Source of the DNA: an uncultured bacterium
Lineage (GTDB): Bacteria > Edwardsbacteria > AC1 > EtOH8
DNA length: 64,000 nucleotides
Direction of reading: 5' to 3'
Assembly: GCA_937863685.1 (NCBI GenBank)
Contig: CALMGM010000010.1
Span: forward strand, 84,158-148,157
Positions 8,867 to 48,618 of the stretch are shown one piece after another (the first letter of the stretch is position 1; each line of letters opens with the position of its first letter). The notes under the pieces were generated by a model, which did not search any database, was not told the DNA's origin, and was given only the letters and a program-made list of their open reading frames with translations. The translations under genes and the position numbers were made by a program.

Positions 8867-8889
8867 TCAAAGGGAGCATCTTTCTTTTG

Positions 8890-10317
8890 ATGAGCAAGCA
8901 ATTTTATAATATAAATCAATACTGGATATCGTCCGCCGATAGTAGCAAAGACTGCTATCCCAGCAGTATTGTCCTGAGGAAAGCCGAGGTCCTGGTGACG
9001 ACTGGAATGTGGGACAAGGCGACCAATATGTATCAGCAAGTCCTGGCTGCCGGAGAACGCTTGGGGGCAGATCCAGAAAGGGCCGAGAGCCTTTACCGGC
9101 TGGGCGAGGTGTTTAGGCTGAAGAGCGAATATCCGGAGGCATTGGAGCATTTGTCAAAAGCGATGCATTTATATCAGGAACTAAGGGACGGCGGGGGAAC
9201 AGCCAAAACCGTAGGCGCCATGGGCGGAGTTTACGGTGAGCAGGGAGATTATCAGAAGGCCATAGAATGTTTTAGCGAACGGAAAAACTGGGCGGAAAAA
9301 ACCGGGGATAAGATGGAGCTGGGTATAGCCTGGGGAAACCTGGGGGTGATCTATGCCGAGCAGAAGATGCTGGACCAGGCCCTGGAGTGCTATCAAAAAC
9401 AAAAAGCTCTGGCTGAGTATATAGGCGATTTGGTGGGGTTATCATTTGCCTATGGGAATTCGGGCAATATATATATCCATAAAAGCCAATATGAGACGGC
9501 TATTGACTGTTTTCAAAAGCAGATGGATCTGTCAAAAAGGATCGGTGATAAAAGGGCATTATGTGCTGTTTCCTGTAATCTGGGACTGCTTTTTAAGAAG
9601 CAAGCGAAAATGGAACAATCACTGGAATATTTTAACCAAGCCATCAGATCCGCTTCCGAAATAGGCTATTCCCGGGTGGTGTCTCAGGCTTATGGAAACA
9701 TCGCCACAGTATATCAAAATCTTGGGGATTTGGAACAAACCGAAAAATGCCTGAATGAATATCTAAAACTAAATCGAGAAGTGAATGATAAGCCCGGGGT
9801 TGTCATTGCTCTGGGGAAAATGAGTAAACTGAAAGAAAGATTGGGAGATATTGAAAAAGCAAAAGCGCTTTTGTCCGAATCATTGGATATTTCCAGGGAT
9901 AATAAGTTTGAAGGACTTTTGCCAATTTTGCTTATTATGATGGGGGAATTGCTGTTGGAGCAAAACGCTTATTCCGATGTCGCAAAGATAGCCGGCGAGG
10001 CATATCAAGTAGCCCAGAAGCAAAATAACCAGGAACAATTAGAGACAGTCCGGATATTGCAATTGCTGTCGGAAATCGGTCAAGGCAATATTTCAGCTGT
10101 TGCCGGACTTATTGAAATTGCCAAGGAGAGCATTTATGATGAGGTCCGGCTGGGGGCCTGCATGGGTCTGTATAAACATACCGGTGAAAATATTTATTTG
10201 AAAGCAGCCGGGGAGCTTTCGGATAAGTTATATGCCGAGACCAGGGAAGTAGAATACAAGATCAGGATGGACCAGCTGCGAGCCACGCAGCCGAAAGAAA
10301 TGGATACAACCATATGA
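8890..10317 (+). CDS. tetratricopeptide (TPR) repeat protein (ORF opens at TTG 8863; ATG 8890 preferred)
   Basis: Successive ~34-aa units with an A..Y..A/G..Y pattern (e.g. [22 protein letters not shown]); lower GC than neighbours; stop overlaps the copA ATG. Confidence 0.6.
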
Positions 10318-12746
10318 AGAAAATCGAGATCCCCGTCAGCGGGATGCACTGCGCCTCCTGTGTCAATAACGTCGAGCAGTACCTGAAAAAGCTGGGAGGG
10401 ATAGTTTCTGCCAGCGTAAATCTGGCCGCCGAGAAGGCCTTCATCGAATACGATGAAAGCCGGATCGATATCGCCGGGATAGTCACAGCCATCAACGATT
10501 CGGGTTATCAGGTTCCGGTCCAGAAGCTCTCCCTGCCGGTGGGCGGGATGCACTGCGCCTCCTGCGTGCTTAACGTGGAGAGGGCCTTGACGAAAAGTCC
10601 GGGCGTGATCTCGGCCAGCGTCAACCTGGCCACCGAGAGGGCCGATGTCGCCTATCTTCCGGATGCGACGGATAGGGAGCAGATAAAAACCACCATCACC
10701 GATGCCGGATACCAGGTGCCGGAAGGATCCGCTCAAACCGGAAATATATCGGTTGCTCCGGCGGTCTCATTGGATGCCCGGCGGGAGGAATATTACCTGT
10801 CGCTCAAGCGAAGGTTCTGGTTTGCCCTGATATTCGCCGTTCCGGTCTTTTTGGGCGGGATGCATATGTTCCTTTCCTTCATCCCCCGCTGGTTTTATGA
10901 TCCTTATGTGATGCTGGCCCTGGCGGCCCCGGTCCAAATATTCTCCGGCTGGCCGTTCTACCAGGGCTTGTGGGCCTCCATAAAACGGCGCAATGCCGAT
11001 ATGAACACTTTGGTGGCGGTGGGAACCACCGCCGCCTTCGGCTACAGCCTGGCGGCCACCTTCTTTCCGGAGTTCTTCGCCGGTGCGGGACGGGAACCGG
11101 CCTACTACTACGATTCGGCGGCGGTGATCATCACCTTGATCCTGCTGGGTCGGATGCTGGAAGCCAACGCCCGGGGACGGACCTCGGAGGCCATCAAGCG
11201 GCTGATCGGTCTGCAGGCCCGGACCGCCCGGATATTCAAAGACGGCGGCGAGTTAGAGGTGCCGATGGAACAACTGGCAATTGGGGATATCATTATCGTC
11301 CGGCCGGGCGAAAAGATAGCCACCGACGGCGTCATCACCGAGGGATATTCCTCCATCGACGAATCGATGATCACCGGGGAGAGCATTCCGGCCGACAAAA
11401 ACATCGGCGATAAAGTGGTCGGCGGCACCATCAACAGGACAGGGGCTTTTCGCTTCAGGGCTTCCAAGGTCGGGCGGGACACCGTGCTGGCCCAGATCAT
11501 CAGAATGGTGGAGGAGGCCCAGGGCAGCAAGGCGCCCATCCAGCGGCTGGCCGACCGGATCGCCTCGGTGTTCGTGCCGATAGTGATGGCGGCCGCCGGC
11601 CTCACCTTCACGGTCTGGCTGATCTGGGGGCCCTCCTTCAACCTGGCCCTGATCAACGCGGTGGCGGTGCTGGTGATCGCCTGCCCCTGCGCCCTGGGGC
11701 TGGCCACCCCCACCGCCATCATGGCCGGCACCGGACGGGGGGCCGAGCTGGGGATACTGATCCGGCGGGGCGAGGTGCTGGAACAAACGGGCAGCATCAC
11801 CAGCATCCTGTTCGACAAGACCGGAACGCTTACCTCCGGAAAGATCGCCGTAACCAATGTAGCGGTGATGCCGGAGTTCGCCGAGGACGATCTATTGTCC
11901 TTGGCTGCCTCGGCCGAGATTTCCTCCGAACATCCCATAGGCCGGGCCATAGTGGATTACGCCAAGTTGAAAAAAATATCATTGGTGGACGTATCGGATT
12001 TCAAGGCCCTGCCCGGCTCCGGCCTCAGCTGCCGGGCGGGCGGCCGATTGGTGGAGATCGGCAACCGGCAGATGATGGAGCAGAAGGAGTATACCAAACT
12101 GGAGAAGCTGTCCGGCCGCCTGCAGCAGGAGGGCAAGACCGTGATCTATGCGGCCATAGATTCCAAGCCGGCCGGGATCATTGCGGTGGCCGACACCCTG
12201 CGGGATAATGCCGTTCGGGTCATTGCCGACCTTAAGGGTCTGGGACTGAAGACCGCCATGATCACCGGGGATCACCAGGAAGCGGCCATGAATATTGCCG
12301 GACAGCTGGGGATAGACCAAGTGATGGCTCAGGTGTTGCCGGGCGACAAAGCGGAGCAGGTAAAAAAAGCCCAGACCGGCAACATCAAAGTGGCCATGGT
12401 GGGCGACGGCATCAACGATGCTCCGGCCTTGGCTCAGGCCGATATCGGCATAGCCATGGGGCGGGGCACCGATGTGGCCATCGAATCAGCCGATATCATA
12501 CTGATGGGGGACAACCTGGAGCTGATAGCCAAGTCGCTGAAGCTCTCCCGGGCCACCCTGAGGATAATCAAGCAGAATCTTTTCTGGGCCTTCTTCTACA
12601 ATATCATCGGGATCCCGGTGGCCGCCGGGGTGCTGTATCCATTTTTTGGGATACTGCTGAACCCCATGTTCGCGGCGCTGGCCATGGCCTTCTCGTCGGT
12701 CAGCGTGGTGAGCAACAGCCTTAGGCTTAGAAAATGGAGAGGATAA
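10314..12746 (+). CDS. copA: copper-translocating P1B-type ATPase with two N-terminal HMA domains
   Basis: Two GMHCASC metal-binding motifs, CPC transmembrane motif ([11 protein letters not shown]), DKTGTLT phosphorylation site, GDGINDAP. Confidence 0.9.
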
Positions 12747-12750
12747 ATTC

Positions 12751-12792
12751 TTGACCTCACCCCTGCCCCTCTCCAAATAAATTTGGCGAGGG
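12751..12792. repeat. 42-bp hairpin repeat, copy 1 (TTGACCTCACCCCTGCCCCTCTCCAAATaAATTTGGcGAGGG)
   Basis: 40/42 identical to the copy at 13835-13876; contains CCCTCTCCAAAT / ATTTGGNGAGGG stem; followed by TTTT here. Confidence 0.7.
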
Positions 12793-12848: not shown

Positions 12849-13838
12849 ATGAGGGGAGTAATTATTTCAATAGTGGCTTTGATGGCATTTGTCTCCCTGG
12901 CCACGGCCCAGACCGATTCGGGAGCCGTCTACATCCAGATGGCCAACACCAGTTACGGGCAGAAACTCTACCGGCAGTCCATAGAAGAGTACCAAGCGGC
13001 GTTAAGATTCCGGCCCGGGCACACCACGGTGATCTACAACATCGCCTGCAATTACAGCCTGCTGGGCAACGAAAAGCAGGCGCTGGTCTGGCTGAACAAG
13101 GCTATCGACGCCGGGATGTACAGCTTTGACCGGGATTCGGATTTCGATAATATCCGAAAATCCAAGGGCTATAAAAAGGCCCTGGCCCGGTCTTCAAAAT
13201 TACTGAAAGAGATAGAAGGCCGCAGCAACCAGCCGGTGGTGCTGCTGCCGGAGGGGTTCGATCCCCAGAAAAAATATCCCCTGCTGATAGCCATGCACGG
13301 CTACGGCGGCGAGCCGGTGAACTTCTCCAAGGCCTTCAGGGCGGCCGGCAGCAAGAAGGGCTATATCGTCTGCTGTCCCTACGCCCCGGAGGTGATGGGC
13401 AAGAACAGCTTCAACTGGGGGGAGTGGGAGCCGGCGGACAAAAGGATCATGGAGTCCATCGCCTTCCTGAAGGCCAAATATCAGATAGACGAAAAGCGGA
13501 TGATCATCGCCGGCTTCTCCCAGGGGGGATATTACAGCTATTATATGGGGCTGAAGCATCCTGATTTATTCATCGGGGCCATTCCCATCGGTCCGGGATA
13601 CGATTCCGACCTGGAACCGATGTTGGCAGGAGCCGCCGCAGCCAAAATGAAATTCTACGTGCTGATGGGCGAGCTGGAGCCGGAGGAACGGATCGACGAT
13701 AATATCAGGGCCATCAAGCAATTCACCAGGGCCGGGATCACCGCCAGTTTCAATTTCTTCTCCGGGGTGGGGCATGCCTTACCGGGCGATTCCGATTTCG
13801 AGTTGCAAAGGGCCATAGAGTGGATAGAGAAGTATTGA
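12849..13838 (+). CDS. secreted alpha/beta-hydrolase (esterase / PHB-depolymerase-like) with N-terminal TPR-like segment
   Basis: Signal peptide; GFSQGG nucleophile-elbow motif; HGYGG oxyanion-like region. Confidence 0.55.
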   Translation: MRGVIISIVALMAFVSLATAQTDSGAVYIQMANTSYGQKLYRQSIEEYQAALRFRPGHTTVIYNIACNYSLLGNEKQALVWLNKAIDAGMYSFDRDSDFDNIRKSKGYKKALARSSKLLKEIEGRSNQPVVLLPEGFDPQKKYPLLIAMHGYGGEPVNFSKAFRAAGSKKGYIVCCPYAPEVMGKNSFNWGEWEPADKRIMESIAFLKAKYQIDEKRMIIAGFSQGGYYSYYMGLKHPDLFIGAIPIGPGYDSDLEPMLAGAAAAKMKFYVLMGELEPEERIDDNIRAIKQFTRAGITASFNFFSGVGHALPGDSDFELQRAIEWIEKY

Positions 13839-13876
13839 CCTCACCCCTGCCCCTCTCCAAATGAATTTGGAGAGGG
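13835..13876. repeat. 42-bp hairpin repeat, copy 2
   Basis: Direct repeat of 12751-12792 and overlaps the esterase stop codon, so the esterase gene is bracketed by the two copies. Confidence 0.7.
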
Positions 13877-13947
13877 GGCACAACATAGATACAAAGGACT
13901 TTTTAGTCACAAAATGCACAAAGACACAAAGTGACTTGTGGTTCTAG

Positions 13948-14210
13948 TCATTGCGAGAAGACATCTGTGCCTGACGGATGAGGCAATCCAGGTTTTTCCC
14001 GGATCGCTTCGTTTGTGTGATACCGGGCCCTACTCGCGATGACGAGAACGCCCGGTCATTGCGATCATTCTGCAGTGTCAGGCGAATGAAGCAATCCACC
14101 GGGTTTCCTGGATCGCTTCGTTCGTGCAATATTAAGGTCATGCTCGCGATGACGAGAACGCCCGGTCATTGCGAGTTGACATCATTGCCGAACAGATGAA
14201 GCAATCCAAC
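13948..14210. repeat. tandem repeat, ~108-110-bp unit x ~2.5 (unit starts 13948, 14056, 14166), each carrying GTCATTGCGAG…GA(A)TGAAGCAATCC
   Basis: Exact 31-mer TCGCGATGACGAGAACGCCCGGTCATTGCGA occurs twice (14033-14063, 14150-14180); units align throughout. Same core element occurs again at 61326-61367. Confidence 0.7.
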
Positions 14211-14378
14211 TCATCCCCCCGCCCCCTTCTCTTGGCAAGAGAAGGGGAGAAAGGGGTTGAGTCAGTCTAAGCCCGAATGGGAAACGTTCGGGCTAATATT
14301 TTAGTAAAATATGCTTGATTTTACATGGTATTGAGGTGTATAGTTGGTACTGTAAACACTAAATATATCGGTGATAAA

Positions 14379-15047
14379 ATGAATCTGAAATATTTTGCCT
14401 TATTCATTTTGCTTGTCGCCCATGCCGCCCTGGCCGGACCCAGGCCCACCGTGGCCATAATGGACCTGCAATGCCAGGGTCTTTCTGCTGCCGATGCTGT
14501 CATAGTAACCGACCGCCTCCTTTCGGAGCTGGGCAAGGCCGGGACTTACGACATTGTGGAGCGCACCAGGCGCGATGAGATACTAAAGGAACAGGGCTTT
14601 ACCATGACCGGGGCCTGCGACCAGACCAGCTGTCTGATCGAGGCCGGCAAGATGCTTTCGGCCTCCAAAATGGTGGGCGGTAGCATTGGCAAGTTTGGAC
14701 AGGCCTGGGTGGTGAATTTACGGCTGGTGGACGTTACCACCGGAAAGATAGACAAGACGGTGGATCGGGATTTCACCGGCCCGCAGGAGAGCCTGCTGCT
14801 TTTAATGCGGGAGGCGGCCGGGGAACTGGTGGACAAGGATATTTTATTGCCCGAAGAAAAGGCCCTGCTGGAAACGGGGCGCAAGGATATTGAAAAGATA
14901 GAAACGGAATATGCCCAGTCTCAGCAACAAACCAAACTTTTGAACAGGAAAAGATCTCCGAGGCCGAGGCCAGACGATTGCAAGAAGAGTCATACAAGGC
15001 CAAACTCTACGCCCAAAAGCAGGAGGAGGAACGCAGGATCAGGCTGA
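14379..15047 (+). CDS. secreted CsgG/LpoB-like domain protein, N-terminal part (frame 0; likely disrupted by a frameshift near 14938-14941)
   Basis: Signal peptide MNLKYFALFILLVAHAALA, then a domain aligning with paralogs at 47719 and 48619 (AIMDLQ…VERTRRDEILKEQGF…TGACDQTSCLIEAGKML…GGSIGKFG…LRLVDVTTGKI); the C-terminal tail of this ORF (KRSPRPRPDD…) looks non-coding. Confidence 0.5.
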   Translation: MNLKYFALFILLVAHAALAGPRPTVAIMDLQCQGLSAADAVIVTDRLLSELGKAGTYDIVERTRRDEILKEQGFTMTGACDQTSCLIEAGKMLSASKMVGGSIGKFGQAWVVNLRLVDVTTGKIDKTVDRDFTGPQESLLLLMREAAGELVDKDILLPEEKALLETGRKDIEKIETEYAQSQQQTKLLNRKRSPRPRPDDCKKSHTRPNSTPKSRRRNAGSG

Positions 15048-15553
15048 AAGCTTTGGAAAAAGAGAATGAACAGCAGAAGAAGGAATATCGGAAACGACTT
15101 AAGGCTCAGGCCAGGCAGGACGAGAAGGAACGCCATGATAGGCTGATGGCTTTAGGGTATATAAAGCCATACCGGGGCACTGCTAAATTGTTTATGTGGT
15201 CGGGCGTTGGTCTGACCGTTGGAGCGGGGGTATTGAAAGTTCTGGCCGAGAATGAATACGACAAATACCAAAGCGCGGAACTTACAGCCGATGCGGTGGA
15301 GGCACGGGACAATACCGAGAAATTGGACAAATATACCTATATTACGGCAGGCACGGCCGGGGCCTGTTTGCTGACCTCTGGGATCTTATATTTGGTGGGG
15401 AATAAAAAGCCGATGAAGCTATCAAAAAATGGTCCGGAATTGGAGCTATATTTTACTGACCGCCCCCTAACCCCCTCCCATGAGGAGGGGGAACAAAAAG
15501 CCCCTTCCCTTGCGGGGAAGGGGTTGGGGTTAGGTCTAGCCTGGAGGTTTTAG
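14978..15553 (+). CDS. C-terminal part of the same protein in frame 2: coiled-coil plus two TM helices (open from 14894)
   Basis: Frame 2 reads …FEQEKISEAEARRLQEESYKAKLYAQKQEEERRIRLKALEKENEQQKK… (E/K/R-rich coiled coil) continuing the frame-0 coiled coil; last ~25 codons run through a GC-rich hairpin repeat. Confidence 0.45.
   Translation: MQEESYKAKLYAQKQEEERRIRLKALEKENEQQKKEYRKRLKAQARQDEKERHDRLMALGYIKPYRGTAKLFMWSGVGLTVGAGVLKVLAENEYDKYQSAELTADAVEARDNTEKLDKYTYITAGTAGACLLTSGILYLVGNKKPMKLSKNGPELELYFTDRPLTPSHEEGEQKAPSLAGKGLGLGLAWRF
15465..15533. repeat. nested GC-rich hairpin repeat (CCTAACCCC[CCCCCTCC-loop-GGAGGGGG][CCCCTTCCC-loop-GGGAAGGGG]GGGGTTAGG)
   Basis: Three mutually nested inverted repeats read directly; a related element lies at 21872-21945 and simpler relatives at 5781-5810, 6941-6962, 14230-14275 and 34037-34064. 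Confidence 0.6.
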
Positions 15554-15555
15554 AC

Positions 15556-16857
15556 ATGAAAAGATATTTACTTTTAGTTTTATGTACCCTGCTTGCTATT
15601 TTGGGTTGCAGCAGGAAGTGGGATAACCCGGTGGAATCTGCGGTGCCTTTACCGGGGGTGCCTGGTTTAATTAGCCCTGCCAATAATGCATGGATATGGA
15701 ATGCACAAAATACGATTACGTTTACCTGGTCTAAAGTAAGCGGCGCAACAAAATATAAATTACTGCTAAGTAATTATTCAGCCGTATCTGATTCATTTGT
15801 TGCAATGGAAATAGCGGATACTTTTTATAATTGGACAGATACAAACAAACTTGGGAAAATGTATTGGCAGGTAAAGGCGTGGAACCCAATAAATGAATGG
15901 AAAATTAGCAGCATCTACACTTTCGAAAAAGGGCCATATATTTTAGCCAGAAACGGTGATTTATCGGTTGGTATGGGTTATGTGCAATTTATATATGAAA
16001 ATTACTTCTATATAGGCTCAAGTTTTAGTTTTAGGATTTATGATATCTCTGATTATAATAAACCAATTTATATTAAGACTGTAGATTATCCACGAGTAAT
16101 AGGTGACTGTACGGTTCTATCTGATAATTTATTATATATGACATCACGTTTTGATGATGGTGATGGTTTAAGTATCGCTACCTTATCAGATCCTTTAAAT
16201 CCAACTGAAATAGGTCATATAACCACAACTTCGTATGTCGATATTTCTGGTAGAAATTATGGACTTGCAATTAAAGATACAATAGCTTACGTTGTTAACT
16301 ATTGGAAAGGTTTGTTTCTTGTTAATATAAAAAACCCAACGAACCCAATTAATATAACCTCTTGTTATTTTGACCGTCCTTCCTTTAAGGTTACCGTGTT
16401 TGGTAACTACGCTTATGTGGCTAGAGAAGATTCAGGCCTTATTGTTGTTGATGTTACTAATCCCTCAATACCTTATATCGTTAATAGAATTATTTATCCA
16501 GAATCATATATAAATAATGTCTATGCGTACAATGATATTTTATATGCAACCGGCCATAAATTTTCATTAGCAAATCCAACAAACCCAATACTTTTAAATG
16601 AAGGGCCTTATTTTGGTTTTCATAAAATAACGGTTCTCAATACTATTATATATGGTGGGAAATATATCTTTAGTAATAGTGACCTTTCTGTTTTAGGCAA
16701 ATGCGATAAAATAAATAATGACACATTATTATATATTCAGGGATATGGCATTAAAAACAATAATATGTTTTGTGGGATTAATTGCTATAAACCAGTAAAC
16801 GGTGGGATTCAAGACTTGGGTGCACGCGGTATTGTTGTTTTTAAATTGGCGCCATAG
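15556..16857 (+). CDS. lipoprotein with LVIVD beta-propeller repeats (AT-rich gene)
   Basis: Lipobox LAILGCS; repeated …GLIVVDVTNPS…, …GLFLVNIKNPTNPI…, …TLSDPLNPTEIGHI… segments characteristic of LVIVD repeats; markedly lower GC and AT-rich codons. Confidence 0.55.
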   Translation: MKRYLLLVLCTLLAILGCSRKWDNPVESAVPLPGVPGLISPANNAWIWNAQNTITFTWSKVSGATKYKLLLSNYSAVSDSFVAMEIADTFYNWTDTNKLGKMYWQVKAWNPINEWKISSIYTFEKGPYILARNGDLSVGMGYVQFIYENYFYIGSSFSFRIYDISDYNKPIYIKTVDYPRVIGDCTVLSDNLLYMTSRFDDGDGLSIATLSDPLNPTEIGHITTTSYVDISGRNYGLAIKDTIAYVVNYWKGLFLVNIKNPTNPINITSCYFDRPSFKVTVFGNYAYVAREDSGLIVVDVTNPSIPYIVNRIIYPESYINNVYAYNDILYATGHKFSLANPTNPILLNEGPYFGFHKITVLNTIIYGGKYIFSNSDLSVLGKCDKINNDTLLYIQGYGIKNNNMFCGINCYKPVNGGIQDLGARGIVVFKLAP

Positions 16858-16882
16858 TATAAAGTTGTTTAAAGGTAATGAT

Positions 16883-17326
16883 ATGAGATATACTATAATT
16901 ATTGCTGCTTACGGTGCTGTTGTCTCTTCAATAGCATTGCTTTGGAATATTCTGCGTGATGCAAAAGACAAACCAAAAATTATATTAGACGTAGAAATTG
17001 GTATTATTGTGCCCGTACAAAATAAAAAGAAATATATATTTGTTACAATAACTAATGTTGGTCGTCGCCCGGTTATAGTCAAAGAATTAAAGGGTGTAAA
17101 AACAAAACTAATAAATTTGCCTTATGTTTTAATAGCCACTAAACAACTTCCAAAAATATTAAACGAAGGTGAATATATACAAGAAACCATACATGATCTA
17201 AATTGGTTAGATAATATTGAAAAAATATATATAAAAGACTCAACGGGTAGAGAGTGGTATCTTCCACGCAATAAGATGAAATTATTAAAGAAACAATATA
17301 CAGAGTATAAAAAGCAAATTTGGTAA
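16883..17326 (+). CDS. hypothetical small membrane-anchored protein (AT-rich)
   Basis: ATG with AAAGGTAATGAT upstream; N-terminal TM helix (IIIAAYGAVVSSIALLW); no recognisable domain. Confidence 0.35.
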   Translation: MRYTIIIAAYGAVVSSIALLWNILRDAKDKPKIILDVEIGIIVPVQNKKKYIFVTITNVGRRPVIVKELKGVKTKLINLPYVLIATKQLPKILNEGEYIQETIHDLNWLDNIEKIYIKDSTGREWYLPRNKMKLLKKQYTEYKKQIW

Positions 17327-17393
17327 AACCAGCTACCATCATAATAATCGCAACTTGAATAACCCCATTCTTTCGGTTATAATTCATCTCACG

Positions 17394-17425
17394 GTGCGGG
17401 TTCACTGCCCGCACTGCTTTTTTTT
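17394..17425 (+). terminator. rho-independent terminator closing the AT-rich island
   Basis: GTGCGGGttcactgCCCGCAC followed by TTTTTTTT. Confidence 0.6.
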
Positions 17426-17431
17426 ACAATC

Positions 17432-17470
17432 GTGTGACAATTGTGCAACAATAGTAAACGATTGTCACAC
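17432..17470. promoter_or_regulatory. 10-bp perfect inverted repeat GTGTGACAAT-N19-ATTGTCACAC upstream of the MATE gene
   Basis: Read directly; centre contains the ACAATTGT palindrome; candidate operator of unknown regulator. Confidence 0.3.
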
Positions 17471-17508: not shown

Positions 17509-18858
17509 TTGGACCGTTCCCAGGAACTGGGGCAGACCCCGGTAGGCAAACTACTGTTAAAATATTTCCTGCCGGCCATCATCGGCGTGCTGGCCAACAC
17601 CCTCTACAACATCGTGGACCGGATCTACATCGGGCGGGGGGTGGGGGCGCTGGCGCTGTCCGGCCTGTCGGTCACCTTCCCCATCATGATCATCGCCATG
17701 GCCTTCGGCATGCTGGTGGGCATGGGGGCGGCCTCGCTGGTATCAATCCGGCTGGGCCAGCAGAACAAACCGGAGGCCGAGAAGATCCTGGGCAACGCCT
17801 TCACTTTGCTGATCATCATCTCCCTGGGCATCACGGTGCTGGGGCTGATCTTCCGGGACACTATCCTCTCGATGTTCGGGGCCGGGCCGGACACTTTGGG
17901 CTACGCCAAGCAGTACATCACCATCATCCTGTGGGGAAATATATTCCAGGGGCTGGGCTTCGGCATGAACAACATGATCCGGGCCGAGGGCAACGCCAAG
18001 GTCGCCATGTACACCATGCTGATCGGGGCGGTGGCCAATTCCCTGCTGGACCCGCTGTTCATCTTCGTCTTCCACATGGGGGTGGCCGGGGCGGCGGTGG
18101 CCACGGTGATCTCCATGGCCATCACCAGCAGCTGGGTGCTGCTGCACTTCACCGGGAACAAAAGCGGACTGCGGCTTAAGACCGCCAACCTGCGGCTGGA
18201 AAAGAAAATAGTGCTGGGCATCTTCGCCATCGGGATGGCGCCCTTCGCCATGCAGCTGGCCGGCAGCGTCATCAACGCGTTGTTCAACATCCAGCTGATA
18301 AAATACGGCGGGGACCTGGCGGTGGGCGCCATGGGAATCATCAACAGCGTGGCCATGATGGTGGTGTTCTGCGTGATCGCCATCAACATGGCCTCCCAGC
18401 CCATCATCGGCTTCAACTACGGGGCCAAAAATTTCGGACGGGTCAAGCGCACCCTCAAGCTGGCCCTGATGGCCGGCACGGCCATCACCGTCAGCGGCTG
18501 GCTGGCGGTGGAGATATTCCCCCAGGCCATCATCTCGCTGTTCAACACCAGCGATCCCCGGCTGGCCGAGATAGGGGTCCGTGGCATACGGATACTGCTG
18601 TTCATGTTCCCGGTGGTGGGCTTCCAGGTGGTGGGGTCCAATTTCTTCCAGGCCATCGGCAAGGCCAAGATCTCCATGTTCCTCAATATGCTGCGCCAGG
18701 TGATCGTGCTGATCCCCATGGTGCTGATCCTGCCGCCGCTGCTGGGGATCGACGGGGTGTGGCTGTCCGGGCCGCTGGCGGACCTGACCGCCGCCTCCAT
18801 CACCGCGGTGATGATCCTGCGGGAGGTGAAAAAGCTGAACCAGAAAAGTGTTGCTTGA
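17509..18858 (+). CDS. MATE family multidrug/sodium efflux transporter
   Basis: 12-TM protein with MATE-typical N-terminus (…LLKYFLPAIIGVLANTLYNIVDRIYIGRGVG…) and internal duplication. Confidence 0.85.
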   Translation: MDRSQELGQTPVGKLLLKYFLPAIIGVLANTLYNIVDRIYIGRGVGALALSGLSVTFPIMIIAMAFGMLVGMGAASLVSIRLGQQNKPEAEKILGNAFTLLIIISLGITVLGLIFRDTILSMFGAGPDTLGYAKQYITIILWGNIFQGLGFGMNNMIRAEGNAKVAMYTMLIGAVANSLLDPLFIFVFHMGVAGAAVATVISMAITSSWVLLHFTGNKSGLRLKTANLRLEKKIVLGIFAIGMAPFAMQLAGSVINALFNIQLIKYGGDLAVGAMGIINSVAMMVVFCVIAINMASQPIIGFNYGAKNFGRVKRTLKLALMAGTAITVSGWLAVEIFPQAIISLFNTSDPRLAEIGVRGIRILLFMFPVVGFQVVGSNFFQAIGKAKISMFLNMLRQVIVLIPMVLILPPLLGIDGVWLSGPLADLTAASITAVMILREVKKLNQKSVA

Positions 18859-19091
18859 AATTGGACGCAGATACACGCAGATTGAACGGATTCCTTTTAA
18901 AATGAATAGATTATATCAGCGTTGATCGGTATCCGATTCGGTTGCGTACAATGAAAAGGCTGAGCAGGAAAATTCGTTAAAATATAGTTTGATTTTAGAA
19001 ATTACATCAACTATAATTAGCATAGCTAATAGGGTCATTATTTAATTAGATAGTGACCTTTATTGTTTCATGATTATAAGGGAGAAAGGGA

Positions 19092-20459
19092 ATGAAAAAT
19101 ATCAAAGTAGTAGTGTTTTTTATCATAATTGCATCAGCAATTACATCATATTCGGCTGCACCTAGCATCGAATGGTCCCGGCAGTACAATATTTCAGAAA
19201 CATCACAGCATGATGCTTATGCCTGCGCAATAGATACTTTGGGTAATATCTATGTGGTAGGCAAGGTACAAGAACAGGTTGGCACTAATGATAATATTTT
19301 AGTGTTGAAATATAACTCAAGCGGAGATACCCTTTGGCATTGGTACTATGATAGCGGCAATTATGATGCAGCAAATGATTGCGTTATCAATAATATGCAA
19401 CAACTATATGTTGCTGGATCAATAAATAATAAGGCTGCTTTATTAAAATTCGATCAAAATGGAGATACGCTTTGGACCAGAGTTATCAATGATCCTAAAT
19501 ATAATGGTAAAAGTTGCGCTTTGGACGAAGCGAACAATATTTATCTTGCAGGTGATTACGATAACGGAACAACACTAATTCCGTTTATTAAAAAATTCTC
19601 GCCCCAGGGTGATTCTTTATGGCTTAAAACAATTTTATTAGAAACATATACTTTTGATTATTATATGACCGCAGATTGCGTTCTGGATAGCAATATGAAC
19701 ATTTATTTTACGGGATCTACAAGCACTCACGGTAGTTTTTTGGCAAAGTGCAACAATTTAGGGGATACCTTATGGACCCGGTTTCGCAATATTGCCGATA
19801 CTGTTAATGAGGCTGGCCAAGAATGTCATATTGATTCAGAAGGTAATATTTATGTATCGGGTGAATATTTTTATCCAGGTTCACCATCTCCTCCATATTT
19901 GGCAATGAAATACGATTCAGAAGGTAATATAATTTGGAATAATATGCAGTCTAATATGAATATAAGCATGGTGTTAGGACATAAAAGTGCATTAGATGAC
20001 CAGGGAAATTTATACGTTACCGGTCAGTCTGCGATGATCAAATACAACAGCCAGGGTGATACTGTTTGGTCGTTTTGGATCGGTTCTGGTGCATCAGGAT
20101 ATGATTGCGAATTGGCCCCTTCTGGGGAGCTTGTGCTCTGTGGGAAAATAAACGATAATGGAATTGACTATTTTCTTATCAATAAATATCAGGCAGAAAC
20201 CGGGGTTGCGGGTGATAAGCCAAAAGAATTATCAGTGGTTGACCAAAGCTCATACCTTGCATACCCAAATCCCTTCAAATCATATGCCAAGGTAAAGGGC
20301 TTGGAAGAACAGGAATTATTTGTTTACAATATATTGGGGCAGAAAGTCCAGGCATGCAAGGGATCCAAAATTGGGGAAAAATTGGCGCCGGGGATATATT
20401 TTGCCATAAAGGCAAAACTGCCGCAAATAAAGCCAGTCAAGCTGATCAAGATAAAATAA
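19092..20459 (+). CDS. secreted beta-propeller-repeat protein with type-IX-secretion-like C-terminal sorting domain (AT-rich gene)
   Basis: Signal peptide; repeated GNIYV.G…KY…GD.LW units (SBBP/PQQ-like); C-terminus …LAYPNPFKSYAKVKG…VYNILGQKV…LAPGIYF…KLIKIK matches the Por/T9SS CTD pattern. Confidence 0.55.
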   Translation: MKNIKVVVFFIIIASAITSYSAAPSIEWSRQYNISETSQHDAYACAIDTLGNIYVVGKVQEQVGTNDNILVLKYNSSGDTLWHWYYDSGNYDAANDCVINNMQQLYVAGSINNKAALLKFDQNGDTLWTRVINDPKYNGKSCALDEANNIYLAGDYDNGTTLIPFIKKFSPQGDSLWLKTILLETYTFDYYMTADCVLDSNMNIYFTGSTSTHGSFLAKCNNLGDTLWTRFRNIADTVNEAGQECHIDSEGNIYVSGEYFYPGSPSPPYLAMKYDSEGNIIWNNMQSNMNISMVLGHKSALDDQGNLYVTGQSAMIKYNSQGDTVWSFWIGSGASGYDCELAPSGELVLCGKINDNGIDYFLINKYQAETGVAGDKPKELSVVDQSSYLAYPNPFKSYAKVKGLEEQELFVYNILGQKVQACKGSKIGEKLAPGIYFAIKAKLPQIKPVKLIKIK

Positions 20460-20475
20460 TTCAAAGGATATAATA

Positions 20476-21465
20476 GTGAAGAGTGCGATCGGATTTATAA
20501 TAACAATCCTTTTCTTTAATATTGCTTTAGCCAGTGACGTGCGCATAAAAGGATTGGGGGGCAGCACCAACATCGAAGATTTAGAAAACGATATCTATGA
20601 TAATCCGGCATTAATGTCAGGCATGCAATATGATTTTGCGGCTTTGGGTTTCAGCAACAGTTTAACCATCAACGAGACTTTCTATGTTCTTGACAGCACA
20701 TACCAGTATTATAAAACTTCCAGAAATTCACCAACGATAGATATCAAGGCTGGTTTGAATGACAGAAAGACAACGAATATTGCAATAAGTTATACCGAAA
20801 ATATCAACATTAATGATTCCTCAAGAATCAACTATGGAATCATCAATCTTGGATTGGCACAAAAGGCAGGCAGGTTCGGCTACGGTTTCGGTTATGACCG
20901 ATCATTCAATGTTAATAATAGTTGGTATGGTGTCAAAGCCGGGATATCAAACATGGACAGCCTGAATAACCTGGCGTTTCTCGTAAATTATTATAAAAGA
21001 AATTATGGGGAGACCTATCTTATAGAATTGAAATGGCGTTCCATTCGCAGCAAAAACAGGACCCTTTGTTTAAAAGGCGGGTTGAGCCAGCCTTTAGGAC
21101 ATCGCGGGAATTATTTCCGTCTGGGGGTTGGTATGGTCTATTATCTAAGGCTATTAAGAACCAGAATAATATTTGATATTTACGAAGGTATTGATCTGGA
21201 TATGAGCGAATATATTTCGCTTATTGGTGACGGGCATTTGGCATTAGAGACATATATATTATCCCCATGGACGGTACGTTGTGGAACGGATGGACCAGTG
21301 CTGGATCTTGGCACAACAATTAAAATCAACGAAAAAATAAAAATCGAATATTCATTTGAAACGGAAAACCACACAACTTATAAACGGGTAGATACTCTTT
21401 ACCTTAATAATAGAACCGAATCAAAAACCCAATGCCATTACCTAAAAGCAATATACGCATTCTAA
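20476..21465 (+). CDS. putative outer-membrane beta-barrel protein (AT-rich gene)
   Basis: Signal peptide (…NIALA), amphipathic strand-like segments, C-terminal …KAIYAF aromatic terminus typical of OMPs; adjacent to the CTD cargo gene. Confidence 0.4.
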   Translation: MKSAIGFIITILFFNIALASDVRIKGLGGSTNIEDLENDIYDNPALMSGMQYDFAALGFSNSLTINETFYVLDSTYQYYKTSRNSPTIDIKAGLNDRKTTNIAISYTENININDSSRINYGIINLGLAQKAGRFGYGFGYDRSFNVNNSWYGVKAGISNMDSLNNLAFLVNYYKRNYGETYLIELKWRSIRSKNRTLCLKGGLSQPLGHRGNYFRLGVGMVYYLRLLRTRIIFDIYEGIDLDMSEYISLIGDGHLALETYILSPWTVRCGTDGPVLDLGTTIKINEKIKIEYSFETENHTTYKRVDTLYLNNRTESKTQCHYLKAIYAF

Positions 21466-21701
21466 AAAGATATTCTAATACTGGATCGATAATATCAACG
21501 TTCATCAGCGTCCTATGGAAAGTTTTGACCGGCAAGAGCAGTACTTTACAACGGATCTGATTTATCGTATAATCTTATAATGATTGTTGCCAAGACCCCC
21601 CATCAAAAAGGGGCCTTGGCCTTTCGGCGTTTCGGGTTTGAAGGTTTTTCAAGTCTTCTGAGTATAGACTGGGTAATAATTGTTATCACTAAGCCCCCGT
21701 G

Positions 21702-21738
21702 TTACTTTCTTGTGACCAAGAAAGTAACCAAAGAAGTC
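21702..21738. repeat. conserved hairpin element TTACTTTCTTGTGACCAAGAAAGTAACCAAAGAAGTC (copy 1)
   Basis: 11-bp stem TTACTTTCTTG/CAAGAAAGTAA around GTGACC; near-identical copy at 61422-61463. Confidence 0.6.
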
Positions 21739-21871
21739 TTTACCGCCCAGTTCCGCGGATGGTCAGGCCTACGCCCCGGCACTCATTGAACCAGAACAAG
21801 CAGGATGTTCATGACACAATGATTGCTTTTTCGGGGCTGATGCATAGCCGCTACACTGAAGGCGGGGTCCG

Positions 21872-21945
21872 ACCTAACCCCTGCCCCTTCCCCGCAGGGG
21901 AAGGGAAGATTGCTTCCCCCTCCTTGCGGGAGGGGGAACGAGGGG
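21872..21945. repeat. nested GC-rich hairpin repeat (relative of 15465-15533)
   Basis: CCTAACCCC…CCCCTTCCCCgcaGGGGAAGGG…CCCCCTCCttgcgGGAGGGGG read directly; produces a spurious ORF (21699-22061). Confidence 0.55.
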
Positions 21946-22077
21946 GCGGTCGGGTCGCGTCAGCGACAGTTCTTCCTTCGCCGGTCTTATATATCACAAC
22001 TCAGGACATGCTTTGTAGCTTTCTCTTCAAAGAGAAAGCGGAGAAAATAAGACAAAAATAATTTAACAAAACAGAAT

Positions 22078-34036: not shown

Positions 34037-34064
34037 AAGCCCCTCTCCGAAAGGGGAGGGGCTT
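34037..34064 (+). terminator. GC-rich hairpin after lpxD (AAGCCCCTCTCCgaaaGGGGAGGGGCTT)
   Basis: Read directly; member of the GC-hairpin family; followed by a T-rich run. Confidence 0.4.
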
Positions 34065-38396: not shown

Positions 38397-38397
38397 A

Positions 38398-38494
38398 TTA
38401 CGCCTTCAGATGCTTTTTGATAAATCTGCAGATCTGCTCCATCGCCTCTTTGGTCTCGGGGAACATCGGGGCGCAGGCCGGGTAGCAGTGTGAA
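38398..38494 (-). pseudogene. 3'-terminal remnant (last 31 codons + stop) of an alpha/beta-hydrolase paralog
   Basis: Minus-strand translation SHCYPACAPMFPETKEAMEQICRFIKKHLKA* matches the C-terminus of the esterase at 38983-39930 (…HCYPACAPMFPEAKEAMEEISRFVKKHLKA*); DNA near-identical over ~40 nt; starts 1 nt after the GNAT stop. Confidence 0.55.
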
Positions 38495-38920: not shown

Positions 38921-38982
38921 CTTTAGTTCCCCTTGTTTGCTTTATTTTAAAATACCCCGACTGTTTGCGGCGAGGTCAGGCA

Positions 38983-47530: not shown

Positions 47531-47718
47531 TCACTTGGTTTTATAATTTGTAATTCCCTGTGATCAACTATTGATTAGGATATCGATAGTCACGGATGGC
47601 ATAGATTTCCCTGCCATAATAGTGCAACGGCCGGTGAAGAAGTTCATGAAAGCAGCAGCGGGCGATGCGATCTAAAAGCCGGATAATAAGCATGTTAAAC
47701 GAAAATGGGGGAGGGGTG

Positions 47719-48597: not shown

Positions 48598-48618
48598 TTT
48601 TATTCAAGGAACCTGAAT

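What the first reader, a model, noticed from the sequence alone, without database searches (positions are those of the whole stretch)
15556..17470. AT-rich island 1: LVIVD-repeat lipoprotein plus small membrane protein, closed by a strong terminator and a 10-bp perfect inverted repeat
GC drops abruptly at 15556 (ATG 3 nt after the preceding stop) and recovers after 17326. Codon usage switches to AAT/ATT/AAA-rich. The cargo is a lipoprotein with LVIVD beta-propeller repeats and a 148-aa single-TM protein of unknown function. The island ends with GTGCGGG…CCCGCAC-T8, then GTGTGACAAT-N19-ATTGTCACAC just upstream of the resident MATE gene. The sharp composition boundaries with no mobility genes suggest an old or decayed acquisition, or a host-compatible gene-delivery mechanism.
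Basis: seen in the sequence. Interest (0 to 1): 0.5.

Follow-up and report, generated by a model that had tools for sequence, protein, structure and literature searches.

The report
Swappable AT-rich surface-lipoprotein cassette
This AT-rich stretch is the variable end of an envelope operon in an uncultured Edwardsbacteria genome: a lipoprotein whose beta-propeller domain, and a small gene behind it, are swapped between lineages by recombination, much as other bacteria swap phage-exposed surface genes.

Summary
The AT-rich island is real. It has 32% GC against 54% for the window and is the lowest-GC stretch of its size. Its GC3 is 0.21-0.22, against 0.72-0.90 in core genes. It is not a self-contained foreign island. 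The GC drop starts about 130-150 nt inside the lipoprotein gene. That gene is translationally coupled to the normal-GC csgG-like gene upstream. The "closing" terminator and inverted repeat also occur in a relative (L015) that lacks the island, so they belong to the MATE gene's own upstream region.

Five Candidatus Edwardsbacteria lineages carry csgG-like, LVIVD lipoprotein and a small gene, always at about 30% GC. Four others lack them at this site; one has an IS element and other AT-rich cargo instead. Lipoprotein residues 1-128 are nearly invariant, but the propeller exists as five alleles (25-59% identity). The slot behind it holds three unrelated genes. Synonymous divergence rises from 0.23-0.28 in the flanks to 0.7-1.4 inside, with dN/dS of 0.1-0.3. 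Segment trees disagree, and one slot gene is 94.5% identical between lineages whose propellers no longer align.

This matches a replacement-type flexible genomic islet. The window's slot gene belongs to a large unannotated family found in defence islands and mobile elements. Ordinary in kind, and a clear example in an unstudied phylum.

The parts
14325..15553 (+). csgG-like envelope gene at normal GC (0.51-0.55), first gene of the operon. In the window it is split into two ORFs (14325-15047 and 14978-15553) by a 1-nt deletion in an A-run at about 14929.
   Evidence: Pfam CsgG, partial match, E 1.8e-8. It is a single 376-420 aa gene in L001 and L005. The deletion is seen in the alignment. It has a signal peptide but no lipobox Cys.
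14950..15340 (+). Border tract with a peak of synonymous divergence inside the csgG-like gene (left recombination boundary, window versus L001).
   Evidence: pS rises from 0.15 (14799-14918) to 0.89 (14978-15097) with dN about 0.08, then falls to 0.14 at 15398-15517. Nucleotide identity drops from 0.93 to 0.76 at about 15000.
15455..15535 (.). GC-rich REP-like palindromic element inserted in frame in the 3' end of the csgG-like gene.
   Evidence: Present in the window and L001, absent from L005 and L007. Related hairpins occur at 12746, 13830, 21884 and 34040.
15556..15939 (+). Lipoprotein signal peptide plus conserved N-terminal domain (residues 1-128), the constant part of the lipoprotein.
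   Evidence: 76-85% amino-acid identity between every pair of four lineages compared, with many invariant columns. GC 0.39, GC3 0.38. Weak Fn3-like similarity only (E 0.058).
15940..16857 (+). Hypervariable LVIVD beta-propeller domain (residues 129-433), probably 7 blades.
   Evidence: Pfam LVIVD. AlphaFold2 pLDDT is mostly about 90 or above over most of this domain, falling to about 70-85 near the C-terminus. Foldseek finds only generic 7-8-bladed propellers, including BamB, at about 10% identity. Propeller-domain identity is 46/46/27% to L001/L005/L007; whole-protein identity to L096 is 46%. dS 1.43 [1.03-2.35], dN/dS 0.30. GC3 0.22.
16883..17326 (+). Variable slot gene: a 147-aa protein with an N-terminal membrane helix, member of a large unannotated family.
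   Evidence: No homolog at this position in L001, L005, L096 (which have a 169-aa protein) or L007 (DUF2971 / PDC-S31). The family has at least 1364 representatives and no meaningful Pfam, NCBIfam, PADLOC, PHROG or PDB match. Members lie next to DISARM DrmA/DrmB, AbiU+DrmD, a Lit-family exclusion protein, a tyrosine integrase and a DDE transposase.
17355..17427 (+). Resident block upstream of MATE: promoter-like TTGAAT-17-TATAAT (17355-17383), then hairpin 17392-17416 followed, after 1 nt, by a T8 run.
   Evidence: Found by the scans. Conserved in the window, L001 and L005, and in island-free L015, where it lies directly downstream of the esterase gene.
17432..17470 (.). 10-bp perfect inverted repeat (13-nt arms at 92%) between the hairpin and the MATE ribosome-binding site; candidate operator of the MATE gene.
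   Evidence: Conserved in island-free L015 (TGTGACAATTGTGCAACAA...AACAATTGTCA) but replaced by other sequence in L001 and L014. No other copy in the window.
17509..18858 (+). Resident MATE efflux transporter gene, the right-hand conserved flank.
   Evidence: Pfam MatE 2.6e-51. 92.6% identical to L001, dS 0.23. DNA identity recovers to 0.9 or more from about 17500.

Best explanation
The AT-rich stretch is the exchangeable distal part of a three-gene envelope operon: a csgG-like protein, an LVIVD beta-propeller lipoprotein and a small variable gene. The operon sits in a strain-variable hotspot between core genes (P-type ATPase/esterase and MATE/Mfd) in a subclade of Candidatus Edwardsbacteria.

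Shown: the lipoprotein has a constant part (signal peptide plus a ~110-residue N-terminal domain) and a propeller that exists as at least five highly diverged alleles. The slot behind it holds at least three unrelated small genes. Divergent versions have been moved between lineages by homologous recombination, leaving a patchwork of tracts with different ages and different trees, and no mobility genes in the lineages that carry the operon.

Inferred: the conserved sequences on each side serve as the recombination anchors (csgG-like gene and lipoprotein N-terminal domain on the left, MATE upstream block on the right). The propeller is exposed at the cell surface and its diversity is maintained by frequency-dependent selection from phages or other agents that recognise it. 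The slot carries defence-island-type cargo. The low GC is a standing property of this clade's accessory gene pool, not a sign of recent arrival.
For: Same position and same ~30% GC in five lineages: the window, L001-L004/L013, L005, L007 and L096. Absent at this site in L015 (esterase directly followed by MATE), L016 and L052. Replaced in L014 by cupin genes, an AT-rich Trypsin_2 gene and a DDE transposase.

Window versus L001: flanks are 82-94% identical in protein, the lipoprotein 56%, and the small gene has no hit. dS with bootstrap intervals: csgG-like N-half 0.26 [0.15-0.37], MATE 0.23 [0.17-0.30], Mfd 0.28 [0.24-0.33], AT-rich control gene p329 0.13; against csgG-like C-half 0.87 [0.61-1.28], lipoprotein N-domain 0.70 [0.45-1.11] and propeller 1.43 [1.03-2.35]. 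dN/dS is 0.09-0.30. Raised dS with low dN/dS points to older, imported alleles and not to positive selection in place.

Segment histories disagree: the csgG-like C-half groups L005 with L007, while the propeller groups L001 with L005. The 169-aa slot gene plus the last ~110 nt of the lipoprotein gene is 94.5% identical in DNA between L005 and L096. In the same pair the csgG-like gene is 83% identical and the propellers give no blastn hit; L001 versus L005 shows the same pattern.

This is the signature described for replacement flexible genomic islands: border peaks of mostly synonymous changes, low dN/dS, near-identical cassettes in divergent backgrounds, no mobility genes, exposed structures (PMC4033161).

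Slot cargo: the L007 gene matches PADLOC PDC-S31 at 6.7e-58 and phrog_1762 at 7e-42. Members of the window's 147-aa family lie beside DrmA/DrmB, AbiU+DrmD, a Lit-family exclusion protein, an integrase and a transposase.
Against: Surface exposure and any role as a phage receptor are inferred only from the lipobox, the LVIVD family's description as cell-surface repeats (PMC2447325) and analogy. Nothing is known about lipoprotein sorting in Edwardsbacteria.

The lineages compared differ at species to genus level (flank dS 0.25-1.1). They are not strains of one species, as in the published concept. No within-population polymorphism was shown.

Only five alleles and three slot genes are known, so co-variation statistics are weak. 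dS estimates in very AT-rich, near-saturated sequence are imprecise, although the AT-rich control gene p329 gives a low dS.

The defence link for the window's slot gene is guilt by association in six contexts (three defence-type, two mobile-element, one discounted questionable phage record). The protein itself matches no defence model.

The cause of the persistent AT-richness is not explained; the directional substitution test was inconclusive.
Confidence: 0.6

Rival explanations
1. Old or decayed horizontally acquired island: a discrete block of foreign AT-rich DNA was inserted once between the csgG-like and MATE genes, lost its mobility genes, and is bounded by a terminator and an inverted repeat.
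For: Extreme compositional contrast. The block is missing from L015, L016 and L052. The most distant LVIVD homologs examined sit in genomes that are themselves low-GC (0.38-0.40), which is compatible with an ancient low-GC donor.
Against: The composition shift starts inside the lipoprotein ORF, and that ORF's ribosome-binding site lies within the csgG-like gene's last codons. The csgG-like gene at normal GC always travels with it. The terminator and inverted repeat exist in island-free L015. A single insertion cannot explain five alleles, three unrelated slot genes, raised dS and conflicting segment trees. No flanking direct repeats, integrase or tRNA were found.
Confidence: 0.15
2. In-place rapid evolution: the lipoprotein and small gene are vertically inherited, evolve fast under diversifying or relaxed selection, and drift to low GC because mutation is AT-biased.
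For: The propeller has the highest dN (0.43) and the highest dN/dS (0.30) in the region. The universal GC-to-AT mutation bias is established knowledge. Another lower-GC gene, the TPR gene at 8863-10317, is also unusually divergent (60% identity).
Against: Synonymous divergence is raised 3-6 fold over the flanks, and fast protein evolution does not predict that. The AT-rich gene p329 is 93% conserved with the lowest dS (0.13), so low GC does not require fast evolution. Slot genes are non-homologous, not just diverged. The 169-aa slot gene is far more similar between L005 and L096 than their flanks are. Tree topologies conflict between adjacent segments.
Confidence: 0.12
3. Polymorphic toxin-immunity-like or cognate-pair module: a constant N-terminal part carries a variable C-terminal effector domain, and the small downstream gene is its matching partner, exchanged together as a unit.
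For: The architecture resembles such loci: a constant N-terminus, an abrupt breakpoint, a variable C-terminus, then a variable small gene, all AT-rich. Among the window, L001/L005 and L007, propeller type and slot gene change together.
Against: The variable part is a complete beta-propeller with no toxin domain in Pfam or NCBIfam. L005 and L096 share a 95% identical slot gene while their lipoproteins are only 53% identical overall and their propeller DNA gives no blastn hit, so the two parts do not co-vary. One slot gene is a DUF2971/PDC-S31 protein and another belongs to a family found alone in defence islands, unlike immunity proteins.
Confidence: 0.06
4. Assembly or binning artefact: the AT-rich segment is a chimeric join in a metagenome-assembled contig.
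For: The window comes from a metagenome assembly. It contains one apparent frameshift nearby, at about 14929.
Against: The same arrangement was assembled independently from many samples and pipelines (ENA, NCBI, JGI, Logan; P0002 is listed in 39 index blocks of the collection) and in five lineages. The composition shift lies inside one intact ORF whose two halves are both conserved in relatives.
Confidence: 0.01

Closest known systems
Replacement flexible genomic islands of aquatic prokaryotes, such as O-chain, flagellum-glycosylation and cell-wall islands (Lopez-Perez, Martin-Cuadrado and Rodriguez-Valera 2014, PMC4033161)
   Same: Fixed genomic position. Very divergent or unrelated versions with a similar envelope role. 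No mobility genes at the borders. Peaks of mostly synonymous substitutions with low dN/dS in bordering genes. Near-identical cassettes shared by otherwise divergent genomes. Low GC. Proposed exchange by homologous recombination in conserved flanks.
   Different: Here the unit is tiny (about 1.8-2.5 kb, one and a half genes plus a slot) instead of a multi-gene glycosylation cluster. One breakpoint lies inside a protein, between a constant N-terminal domain and a variable propeller. The lineages compared are diverged at species to genus level, not strains at more than 96% ANI. The island is missing altogether in some relatives, so it also behaves as an additive island.
LVIVD-repeat cell-surface proteins (Pfam PF08309; Adindla et al. 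2004, PMC2447325)
   Same: Pfam match above the gathering score, a predicted beta-propeller and a secretion signal.
   Different: Most homologs recovered are 500-750 aa and carry a T9SS C-terminal sorting domain. This one is a 433-aa lipoprotein with a clade-specific N-terminal domain and no T9SS tail. No member has an experimentally known function.
Defence islands and variable hotspots carrying anti-phage genes (PADLOC models: DISARM, AbiU, PDC-S31)
   Same: The slot holds different small AT-rich genes in different lineages. One is a PDC-S31 candidate. The window's gene belongs to a family found beside DISARM, AbiU and Lit-family genes.
   Different: The window's own slot protein matches no defence model. 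The slot holds one gene only, and no recognised complete defence system is present in the window's locus.
BamB, the lipoprotein beta-propeller of the outer-membrane BAM complex
   Same: A lipoprotein with a single 7-8-bladed propeller. It is among the top structural matches (Foldseek E about 2e-8, TM about 0.47-0.55).
   Different: About 10% sequence identity, generic propeller similarity only. BamB is conserved core machinery, not hypervariable and not accessory.

Membership tests
Replacement flexible genomic island | Same chromosomal position in different genomes, between conserved core genes | tested here: met
   ATPase/esterase, then the operon, then MATE and Mfd in the window, L001-L004, L013 and L096. 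The wider context of the short contigs L005 and L007 differs or is unknown.
Replacement flexible genomic island | Versions are very divergent or unrelated but of similar kind | tested here: met
   Five lipoprotein alleles: propeller-domain identity 25-59% among four, and the fifth (L096) is 37-56% identical over the whole protein. Three unrelated slot genes.
Replacement flexible genomic island | Raised, mostly synonymous substitutions with low dN/dS in bordering genes | tested here: met
   pS is 0.15 then 0.89 across about 14920-14980 with dN about 0.08. The csgG-like C-half has dS 0.87 and dN/dS 0.09, against flanks at dS 0.23-0.28.
Replacement flexible genomic island | Near-identical cassette shared by otherwise divergent genomes (recent exchange) | tested here: met
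   A 669-bp tract (end of the lipoprotein gene plus the 169-aa gene) is 94.5% identical between L005 and L096, against 83% in the csgG-like gene and no alignable propeller DNA. This is not identical, so the exchange is not very recent.
Replacement flexible genomic island | Encodes structures exposed at the cell surface that are targets of phages | not testable with these tools
   Lipobox signal and LVIVD cell-surface repeat family only (PMC2447325). Exposure and phage recognition are inferred.
Replacement flexible genomic island | Variation among strains of one species or population | not tested
   The lineages compared have flank dS of 0.25-1.1. No read recruitment or same-species genome set was available.
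Classical horizontally acquired genomic island | Atypical base composition | tested here: met
   GC 0.32 against 0.54; GC3 0.21 against 0.72-0.90.
Classical horizontally acquired genomic island | Integrase, transposase or other mobility gene; insertion next to a tRNA; flanking direct repeats | tested here: not met
   The neighbouring genes are all housekeeping or envelope genes. The nearest tRNA is at 56335. No flanking direct repeats were found.
LVIVD-repeat beta-propeller protein (PF08309) | Match to the Pfam model above the gathering score, and a beta-propeller fold | tested here: met
   50.9 bits against a cut-off of 20.2. AlphaFold2 propeller pLDDT mostly about 90, with 28 strands in fours. 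Propeller matches in the PDB.
Polymorphic toxin-immunity system | Variable C-terminal toxin domain | tested here: not met
   The variable part is a whole propeller, with no toxin family in Pfam or NCBIfam.
Polymorphic toxin-immunity system | Downstream gene co-varies with the C-terminal domain | tested here: not met
   L005 and L096 have a 95% identical slot gene but lipoproteins only 53% identical overall, with no alignable propeller DNA.
Diversity-generating retroelement target | Reverse transcriptase and a template repeat matching the variable region | tested here: not met
   No direct repeat longer than 20 nt involves the lipoprotein gene. None of the neighbouring genes scanned matches a reverse transcriptase.
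Curli secretion channel CsgG (for the upstream gene) | Full-length CsgG domain and a lipoprotein signal | tested here: not met
   Only profile positions 39-102 of 210 match (E 1.8e-8). The signal peptide has no lipobox Cys. A long charged coiled-coil and hydrophobic segments follow. It is 'CsgG-like' at domain level only.
Known anti-phage defence protein (PADLOC) for the window's 147-aa gene | Match to a defence-system model | tested here: not met
   No hit for the protein. Only 1 of 60 family members gives a marginal hit, E 0.0022. The link is by genomic neighbourhood only.

The most novel reading that the evidence does not exclude
The 147-aa membrane protein in the slot represents a large family (at least 1364 representatives at 50% identity) that is not in Pfam, NCBIfam, PADLOC or PHROGs. 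On this reading it is a new single-gene anti-phage, abortive-infection or exclusion factor. The Edwardsbacteria locus would then couple two phage-evasion strategies in one exchangeable cassette: a swappable surface-propeller allele and a swappable defence gene. The extreme and stable AT-richness would be a functional feature of that cassette pool, for example keeping it silenced or separately regulated.
Probability: 0.15. Interest if true: 0.6.

Novelty: new member of a known kind. Interest (0 to 1): 0.38.

Why it matters
Nothing is known about the genome dynamics of Candidatus Edwardsbacteria (UBP2). This locus shows that these uncultured bacteria exchange envelope-gene alleles by homologous recombination, as well-studied aquatic bacteria do. 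The breakpoint inside the protein is unusually clear: a constant anchor domain and a variable propeller. The GC3 contrast within a single operon is also very large (0.21 against 0.72-0.90).

It is a caution for composition-based island callers. The compositional boundary here matches neither the gene boundary nor the boundary of the unit that is gained or lost, and nearby structures that look like island ends belong to the neighbouring resident gene.

The side result may be more useful: a widespread, unannotated family of small membrane proteins that keeps turning up in defence islands and mobile elements. It can be tested directly for anti-phage activity.

Tried and rejected
- **Diversity-generating retroelement:** no template repeat and no reverse transcriptase.
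- **Integron-like cassette or invertible promoter using the hairpin or inverted repeat:** rejected, because both structures are present in island-free L015 and the inverted repeat has no other copy in the window.
- **Riboswitch or known RNA in the MATE leader or island:** Rfam gave only sub-threshold chance hits.
- **AT-richness caused by amino-acid composition:** rejected. GC3 and the choice between synonymous codons shift strongly.
- **Assembly chimera:** rejected by independent assemblies.
- **Amelioration test by polarised singleton substitutions:** AT-to-GC exceeds GC-to-AT (42 against 27 in the N-domain, 151 against 61 in the propeller). Parsimony in AT-rich saturated sequence is biased the same way, and the normal-GC control shows the mirror image. 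Inconclusive.
- **Structure of the small protein:** pLDDT 40.6 with a three-sequence alignment, unusable.
- **N-terminal domain of the lipoprotein:** not modelled confidently, and only a weak Fn3-like sequence hit.
- **First genome-collection scan with the csgG-like alignment:** it used low-complexity peptides and found nothing.
- **Metagenome scan with the lipoprotein alignment:** it returned only another copy of the L001 type.
- **Phage hit for the small protein (MaAM05):** discounted, because that record carries rpsA, ispH and trpS around the match.
- **Target-site duplications or insertion scars at the esterase-csgG junction:** none found, only REP-like repeats.
Full report
**1. The observation**

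The compositional island is real and strong. In 300-nt windows, GC falls from 0.48-0.52 upstream to 0.28-0.35 across about 15700-17350. It returns to 0.60-0.62 inside the MATE gene. Over 15556-17326 the GC is 0.323, against a window mean of 0.536 (sd 0.062). This is the lowest-GC stretch of that length in the whole 64 kb, with the minimum starting at 15682.

The effect is at the nucleotide level, not the amino-acid level. GC3 is 0.22 for the propeller and 0.21 for the small gene, against 0.72-0.90 for the core genes around them (0.58-0.66 in the adjacent csgG-like gene). ATT/(ATT+ATC) is 0.86 against 0.08.

The gene calls hold:
- 15556-16857 encodes a 433-aa protein with a lipobox-type signal and a Pfam LVIVD match (50.9 bits, cut-off 20.2).
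- 16883-17326 encodes a 147-aa protein with an N-terminal hydrophobic helix.
- The hairpin plus T8 (17392-17416) and the perfect 10-bp inverted repeat (17432-17441 / 17461-17470) are present.

Two details differ from the finding. The GC drop lies about 130-150 nt inside the lipoprotein ORF, not at its ATG. The window also has other low-GC patches, at 18.9-21.6 kb, 48.6-49.5 kb and 61.2-62 kb.

**2. Who carries it**

The closest homologs of the lipoprotein come from Candidatus Edwardsbacteria (UBP2). Only four proteins in the 5.8-billion-protein collection share its whole length, including the window's own.

Fetching their contigs showed the same gene order as the window: TGT, His-phosphatase, TPR, P-type ATPase, esterase, csgG-like, LVIVD lipoprotein, small gene, MATE, a 329-aa protein, Mfd, UVR and McsB (L001-L004, L013). 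In L001, L005, L007 and later L096, the lipoprotein and the gene after it are again at about 30% GC, within flanks of 55-65%.

A scan of GTDB species representatives with the MATE protein recovered further Edwardsbacteria/UBP2 genomes.
- In L015 the esterase gene is followed directly by MATE and then Mfd, an empty site for both AT-rich islands.
- L016 and L052 also lack the csgG-like and lipoprotein genes.
- L014 is as close to the window as L001 is (MATE 91%, Mfd 92%). It carries two cupin-type genes, an AT-rich Trypsin_2 gene (GC 0.35) and a DDE transposase in that interval.

The interval between the ATPase/esterase and MATE genes is therefore a strain-variable hotspot. The unit that comes and goes is the whole operon, including the normal-GC csgG-like gene.

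**3. The structures said to close the island are resident**

Island-free L015 contains three elements between its esterase and MATE genes: the TTGAAT...GGTTATAAT block, the GC-rich hairpin with its T-run, and the inverted repeat (TGTGACAATTGTGCAACAA...AACAATTGTCA).

The hairpin block is also conserved in L001 and L005. The inverted repeat is replaced by other sequence in L001 and L014. These elements therefore belong to the upstream region of the MATE gene: a terminator for whatever lies upstream, and probably a promoter-operator for the efflux gene. Rfam finds no known RNA there.

**4. Anatomy of the variation**

Against L001, the flanks are 82-94% identical in protein (MATE 92.6%, Mfd 93.5%). 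The lipoprotein is 56% identical, and the small protein has no detectable match.

Within the lipoprotein, residues 1-128 (signal peptide plus an N-terminal domain) are nearly invariant in all four alleles compared. Identity collapses immediately after the motif FEKGPY. DNA identity to L001 runs as follows:
- 0.93 up to about 15000
- 0.76-0.89 from 15000 to 15900
- 0.51-0.68 through the propeller, and 0.36-0.58 through the slot gene and intergenic DNA, to about 17500
- 0.9 or more from the MATE start

The propeller domain is modelled confidently. pLDDT is mostly about 90 or above, falling to about 70-85 near the C-terminus, with 28 strands in fours, so probably seven blades. It resembles only generic propellers, including the lipoprotein BamB, at about 10% identity.

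Five lipoprotein alleles are now known: the window, L001, L005, L007 and L096. Propeller-domain identity is 25-59% among the first four. L096 is 37-56% identical to them over the whole protein.

The slot after the lipoprotein holds three unrelated genes:
- the 147-aa protein with an N-terminal membrane helix in the window
- a 169-aa protein with a C-terminal hydrophobic segment in L001, L005 and L096
- a 248-aa DUF2971 protein in L007

**5. Recombination, not fast evolution in place**

Nei-Gojobori estimates between the window and L001, with bootstrap intervals:

| Segment | dS | 95% interval |
|---|---|---|
| csgG-like N-half (flank) | 0.26 | 0.15-0.37 |
| MATE (flank) | 0.23 | 0.17-0.30 |
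| Mfd (flank) | 0.28 | 0.24-0.33 |
| p329 (AT-rich control) | 0.13 | 0.08-0.18 |
| csgG-like C-half | 0.87 | 0.61-1.28 |
| Lipoprotein N-domain | 0.70 | 0.45-1.11 |
| Propeller | 1.43 | 1.03-2.35 |

dN/dS in the three island segments is only 0.09-0.30.

In sliding windows, the proportion of synonymous differences jumps from 0.15 (14799-14918) to 0.89 (14978-15097) while dN stays near 0.08. It drops back to 0.14 at 15398-15517, then climbs to 0.6-0.8 in the propeller. Several tracts of different age are therefore juxtaposed.

Segment histories conflict. The csgG-like C-half is most similar between L005 and L007, and the propeller between L001 and L005. The 169-aa gene is 94.5% identical in DNA between L005 and L096, over 669 bp that begin in the last ~110 nt of the lipoprotein gene. 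In the same pair the csgG-like gene is 83% identical, and the propellers are too diverged for blastn. L001 versus L005 shows the same pattern: dS is 0.35 for the slot gene against about 1.1 for its neighbours.

Raised dS with low dN/dS, conflicting trees and a recently shared cassette are the expected result of importing divergent alleles by homologous recombination through conserved flanking sequence. This is the signature reported for replacement flexible genomic islands (PMC4033161).

**6. What the slot carries**

The L007 slot gene matches the PADLOC candidate defence family PDC-S31 (E 6.7e-58) and a phage protein family (phrog_1762, 7e-42).

The window's 147-aa protein looked like an orphan in the word-indexed search, with two remote hits. 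An exhaustive profile search found at least 1364 cluster representatives, 377 of them at E of 1e-10 or better. All are about 140-200 aa with the same layout: a membrane helix followed by WNIxRD, TNVGRRP, LPxxLxEGE and DSxGKxW motifs. No member tested gives a meaningful match in Pfam, NCBIfam, PADLOC, PHROGs or the PDB.

Family members were examined in six neighbourhoods:
- overlapping a tyrosine integrase gene by 4 bp (L008)
- near a DDE transposase (L011)
- at the end of a DISARM-type cluster, after DrmA (1e-103) and DrmB (4e-28) (L097)
- beside AbiU (4e-31) and DrmD (2e-210) (L099)
- 27 nt upstream of a gene annotated as a Lit-family phage exclusion protein on an Aliarcobacter plasmid, with a recombinase nearby (L101)
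- on a questionable phage record, which I discount

This is guilt by association only, but it is consistent: the slot carries the type of cargo found in defence islands and mobile elements.

**7. How it most likely works**

Shown:
- an operon in which a normal-GC csgG-like gene is followed, with an embedded ribosome-binding site and a 2-nt gap, by a lipoprotein gene and a small gene
- a constant N-terminal module and a variable propeller
- a variable slot
- recombination tracts and presence/absence variation at a hotspot
- stable AT-richness in every version

Inferred:
- The propeller is surface-exposed.
- Its diversity, and that of the slot gene, is maintained because phages, predators or competitors recognise or are blocked by them.
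- New versions spread between Edwardsbacteria lineages by homologous recombination, anchored in the csgG-like gene and N-terminal domain on one side and the MATE upstream block on the other.

The AT-richness fits the general rule, from established knowledge, that accessory genes are AT-richer than the core. Every AT-rich gene examined here is accessory: the lipoprotein, all three slot genes, SBBP, p329 and the L014 protease. Every core gene is GC-rich. Whether the low GC is actively maintained or reflects residence in an AT-rich mobile pool could not be decided.

**8. Comparison and verdict**

The locus works like a replacement flexible genomic island and meets the sequence-level criteria I could test. 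It differs in four ways: its small size, a breakpoint inside a protein, the evolutionary distance of the genomes compared, and its complete absence from some relatives.

It is not a classical mobile genomic island, a DGR target or a polymorphic toxin locus; defining features of each were tested and not met. The boundaries, the role of the terminator and inverted repeat, and the need for a special delivery mechanism are not supported.

In kind this is ordinary, a new member of a known class, seen here in an unstudied phylum. The most promising lead is the unannotated small-protein family associated with defence islands.

Noticed in passing
window 14925-14935 (csgG-like gene 14325-15553): A 1-nt deletion in an A-run (CAACAAAACC in L001, CAACAAACC here) splits the csgG-like gene into two overlapping ORFs. 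It could be an assembly error or a real frameshift, and it lies just before the point where synonymous divergence jumps.
   Followed up: partly
window 12746-12792, 13830-13876, 15455-15535, 21884-21906, 34040-34061: A small family of GC-rich REP-like hairpin elements, mostly placed just after stop codons. The copy at 15455-15535 sits in frame inside the 3' end of the csgG-like gene and adds about 25 residues. It is shared with L001 but absent from L005 and L007.
   Followed up: partly
window 13940-14210 and 21699-22061: The esterase-csgG intergenic region contains repeated units (14026-14064 and 14136-14174 are 92% identical; CATTGCGA...GAAGCAATCCA motifs). The 120-aa ORF at 21699-22061 matches intergenic DNA in L001 and L096, so it is probably a spurious ORF over such repeats.
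   Followed up: no
window 18860-21600: A second AT-rich island. An SBBP beta-propeller with a weak T9SS sorting tail (19092-20459) is absent from L001. A 329-aa protein ending in YAF (20476-21465) is AT-rich yet 93% conserved with L001 and has the lowest dS (0.13). It is absent from L014, L015, L016 and L096.
   Followed up: partly
window 47665-49476: A second pairing of the same style: a normal-GC csgG-like gene (47665-48597, GC 0.54) is followed directly by an AT-rich csgG-like paralog (48619-49476, GC 0.36, GC3 0.33), just upstream of a class I aminoacyl-tRNA synthetase gene.
   Followed up: no
window 38397-38490 and 38982-39075: A 94-nt direct repeat (83% identical) brackets an AT-rich GNAT acetyltransferase gene (38495-38920, minus strand). 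One copy is the 3' end of the neighbouring 349-aa gene. It looks like a duplication left by insertion of the GNAT gene.
   Followed up: no
window 17509-18858 (MATE) versus loci L019-L027 and L042: The MATE transporter is 72-76% identical to proteins in MAGs labelled Aminicenantes, Acidobacteriota and Chrysiogenales. That is nearly as close as to some UBP2 genomes (76-79%), which suggests cross-phylum transfer of this efflux gene or mislabelled bins.
   Followed up: no
window 8863-10317: The TPR gene has lower GC (0.46, GC3 0.51) and is only 60% identical to L001, where its neighbours are 71-91%. It is missing from L014 and L096, so it is another variable gene next to the hotspot.
   Followed up: no
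window 17355-17470; L015 460-600: The conserved promoter-like TTGAAT-17-TATAAT sits directly before a terminator hairpin. It is followed by an inverted repeat that is conserved in the window and L015 but replaced in L001 and L014. This could be a repressor-controlled promoter or leader for the MATE gene, with alternative operator versions in different lineages.
   Followed up: partly
loci L097 (6001-6486), L099 (834-1271), L101 (5001-5717), L008 (1168-1710), L011 (5024-5497): Members of the unannotated small-protein family (at least 1364 representatives) lie beside DISARM DrmA/DrmB, AbiU plus DrmD, a Lit-family exclusion protein, a tyrosine integrase and a DDE transposase. This makes the family a candidate defence-island family not present in Pfam, PADLOC or PHROGs.
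   Followed up: partly
locus L096 (ERZ25039527 contig_7776): This 262-kb contig has many genes broken into pieces (ATPase in three, Mfd, MATE, csgG-like, lipoprotein). That is typical of uncorrected long-read assembly errors, so its gene calls should not be taken as pseudogenes.
   Followed up: no
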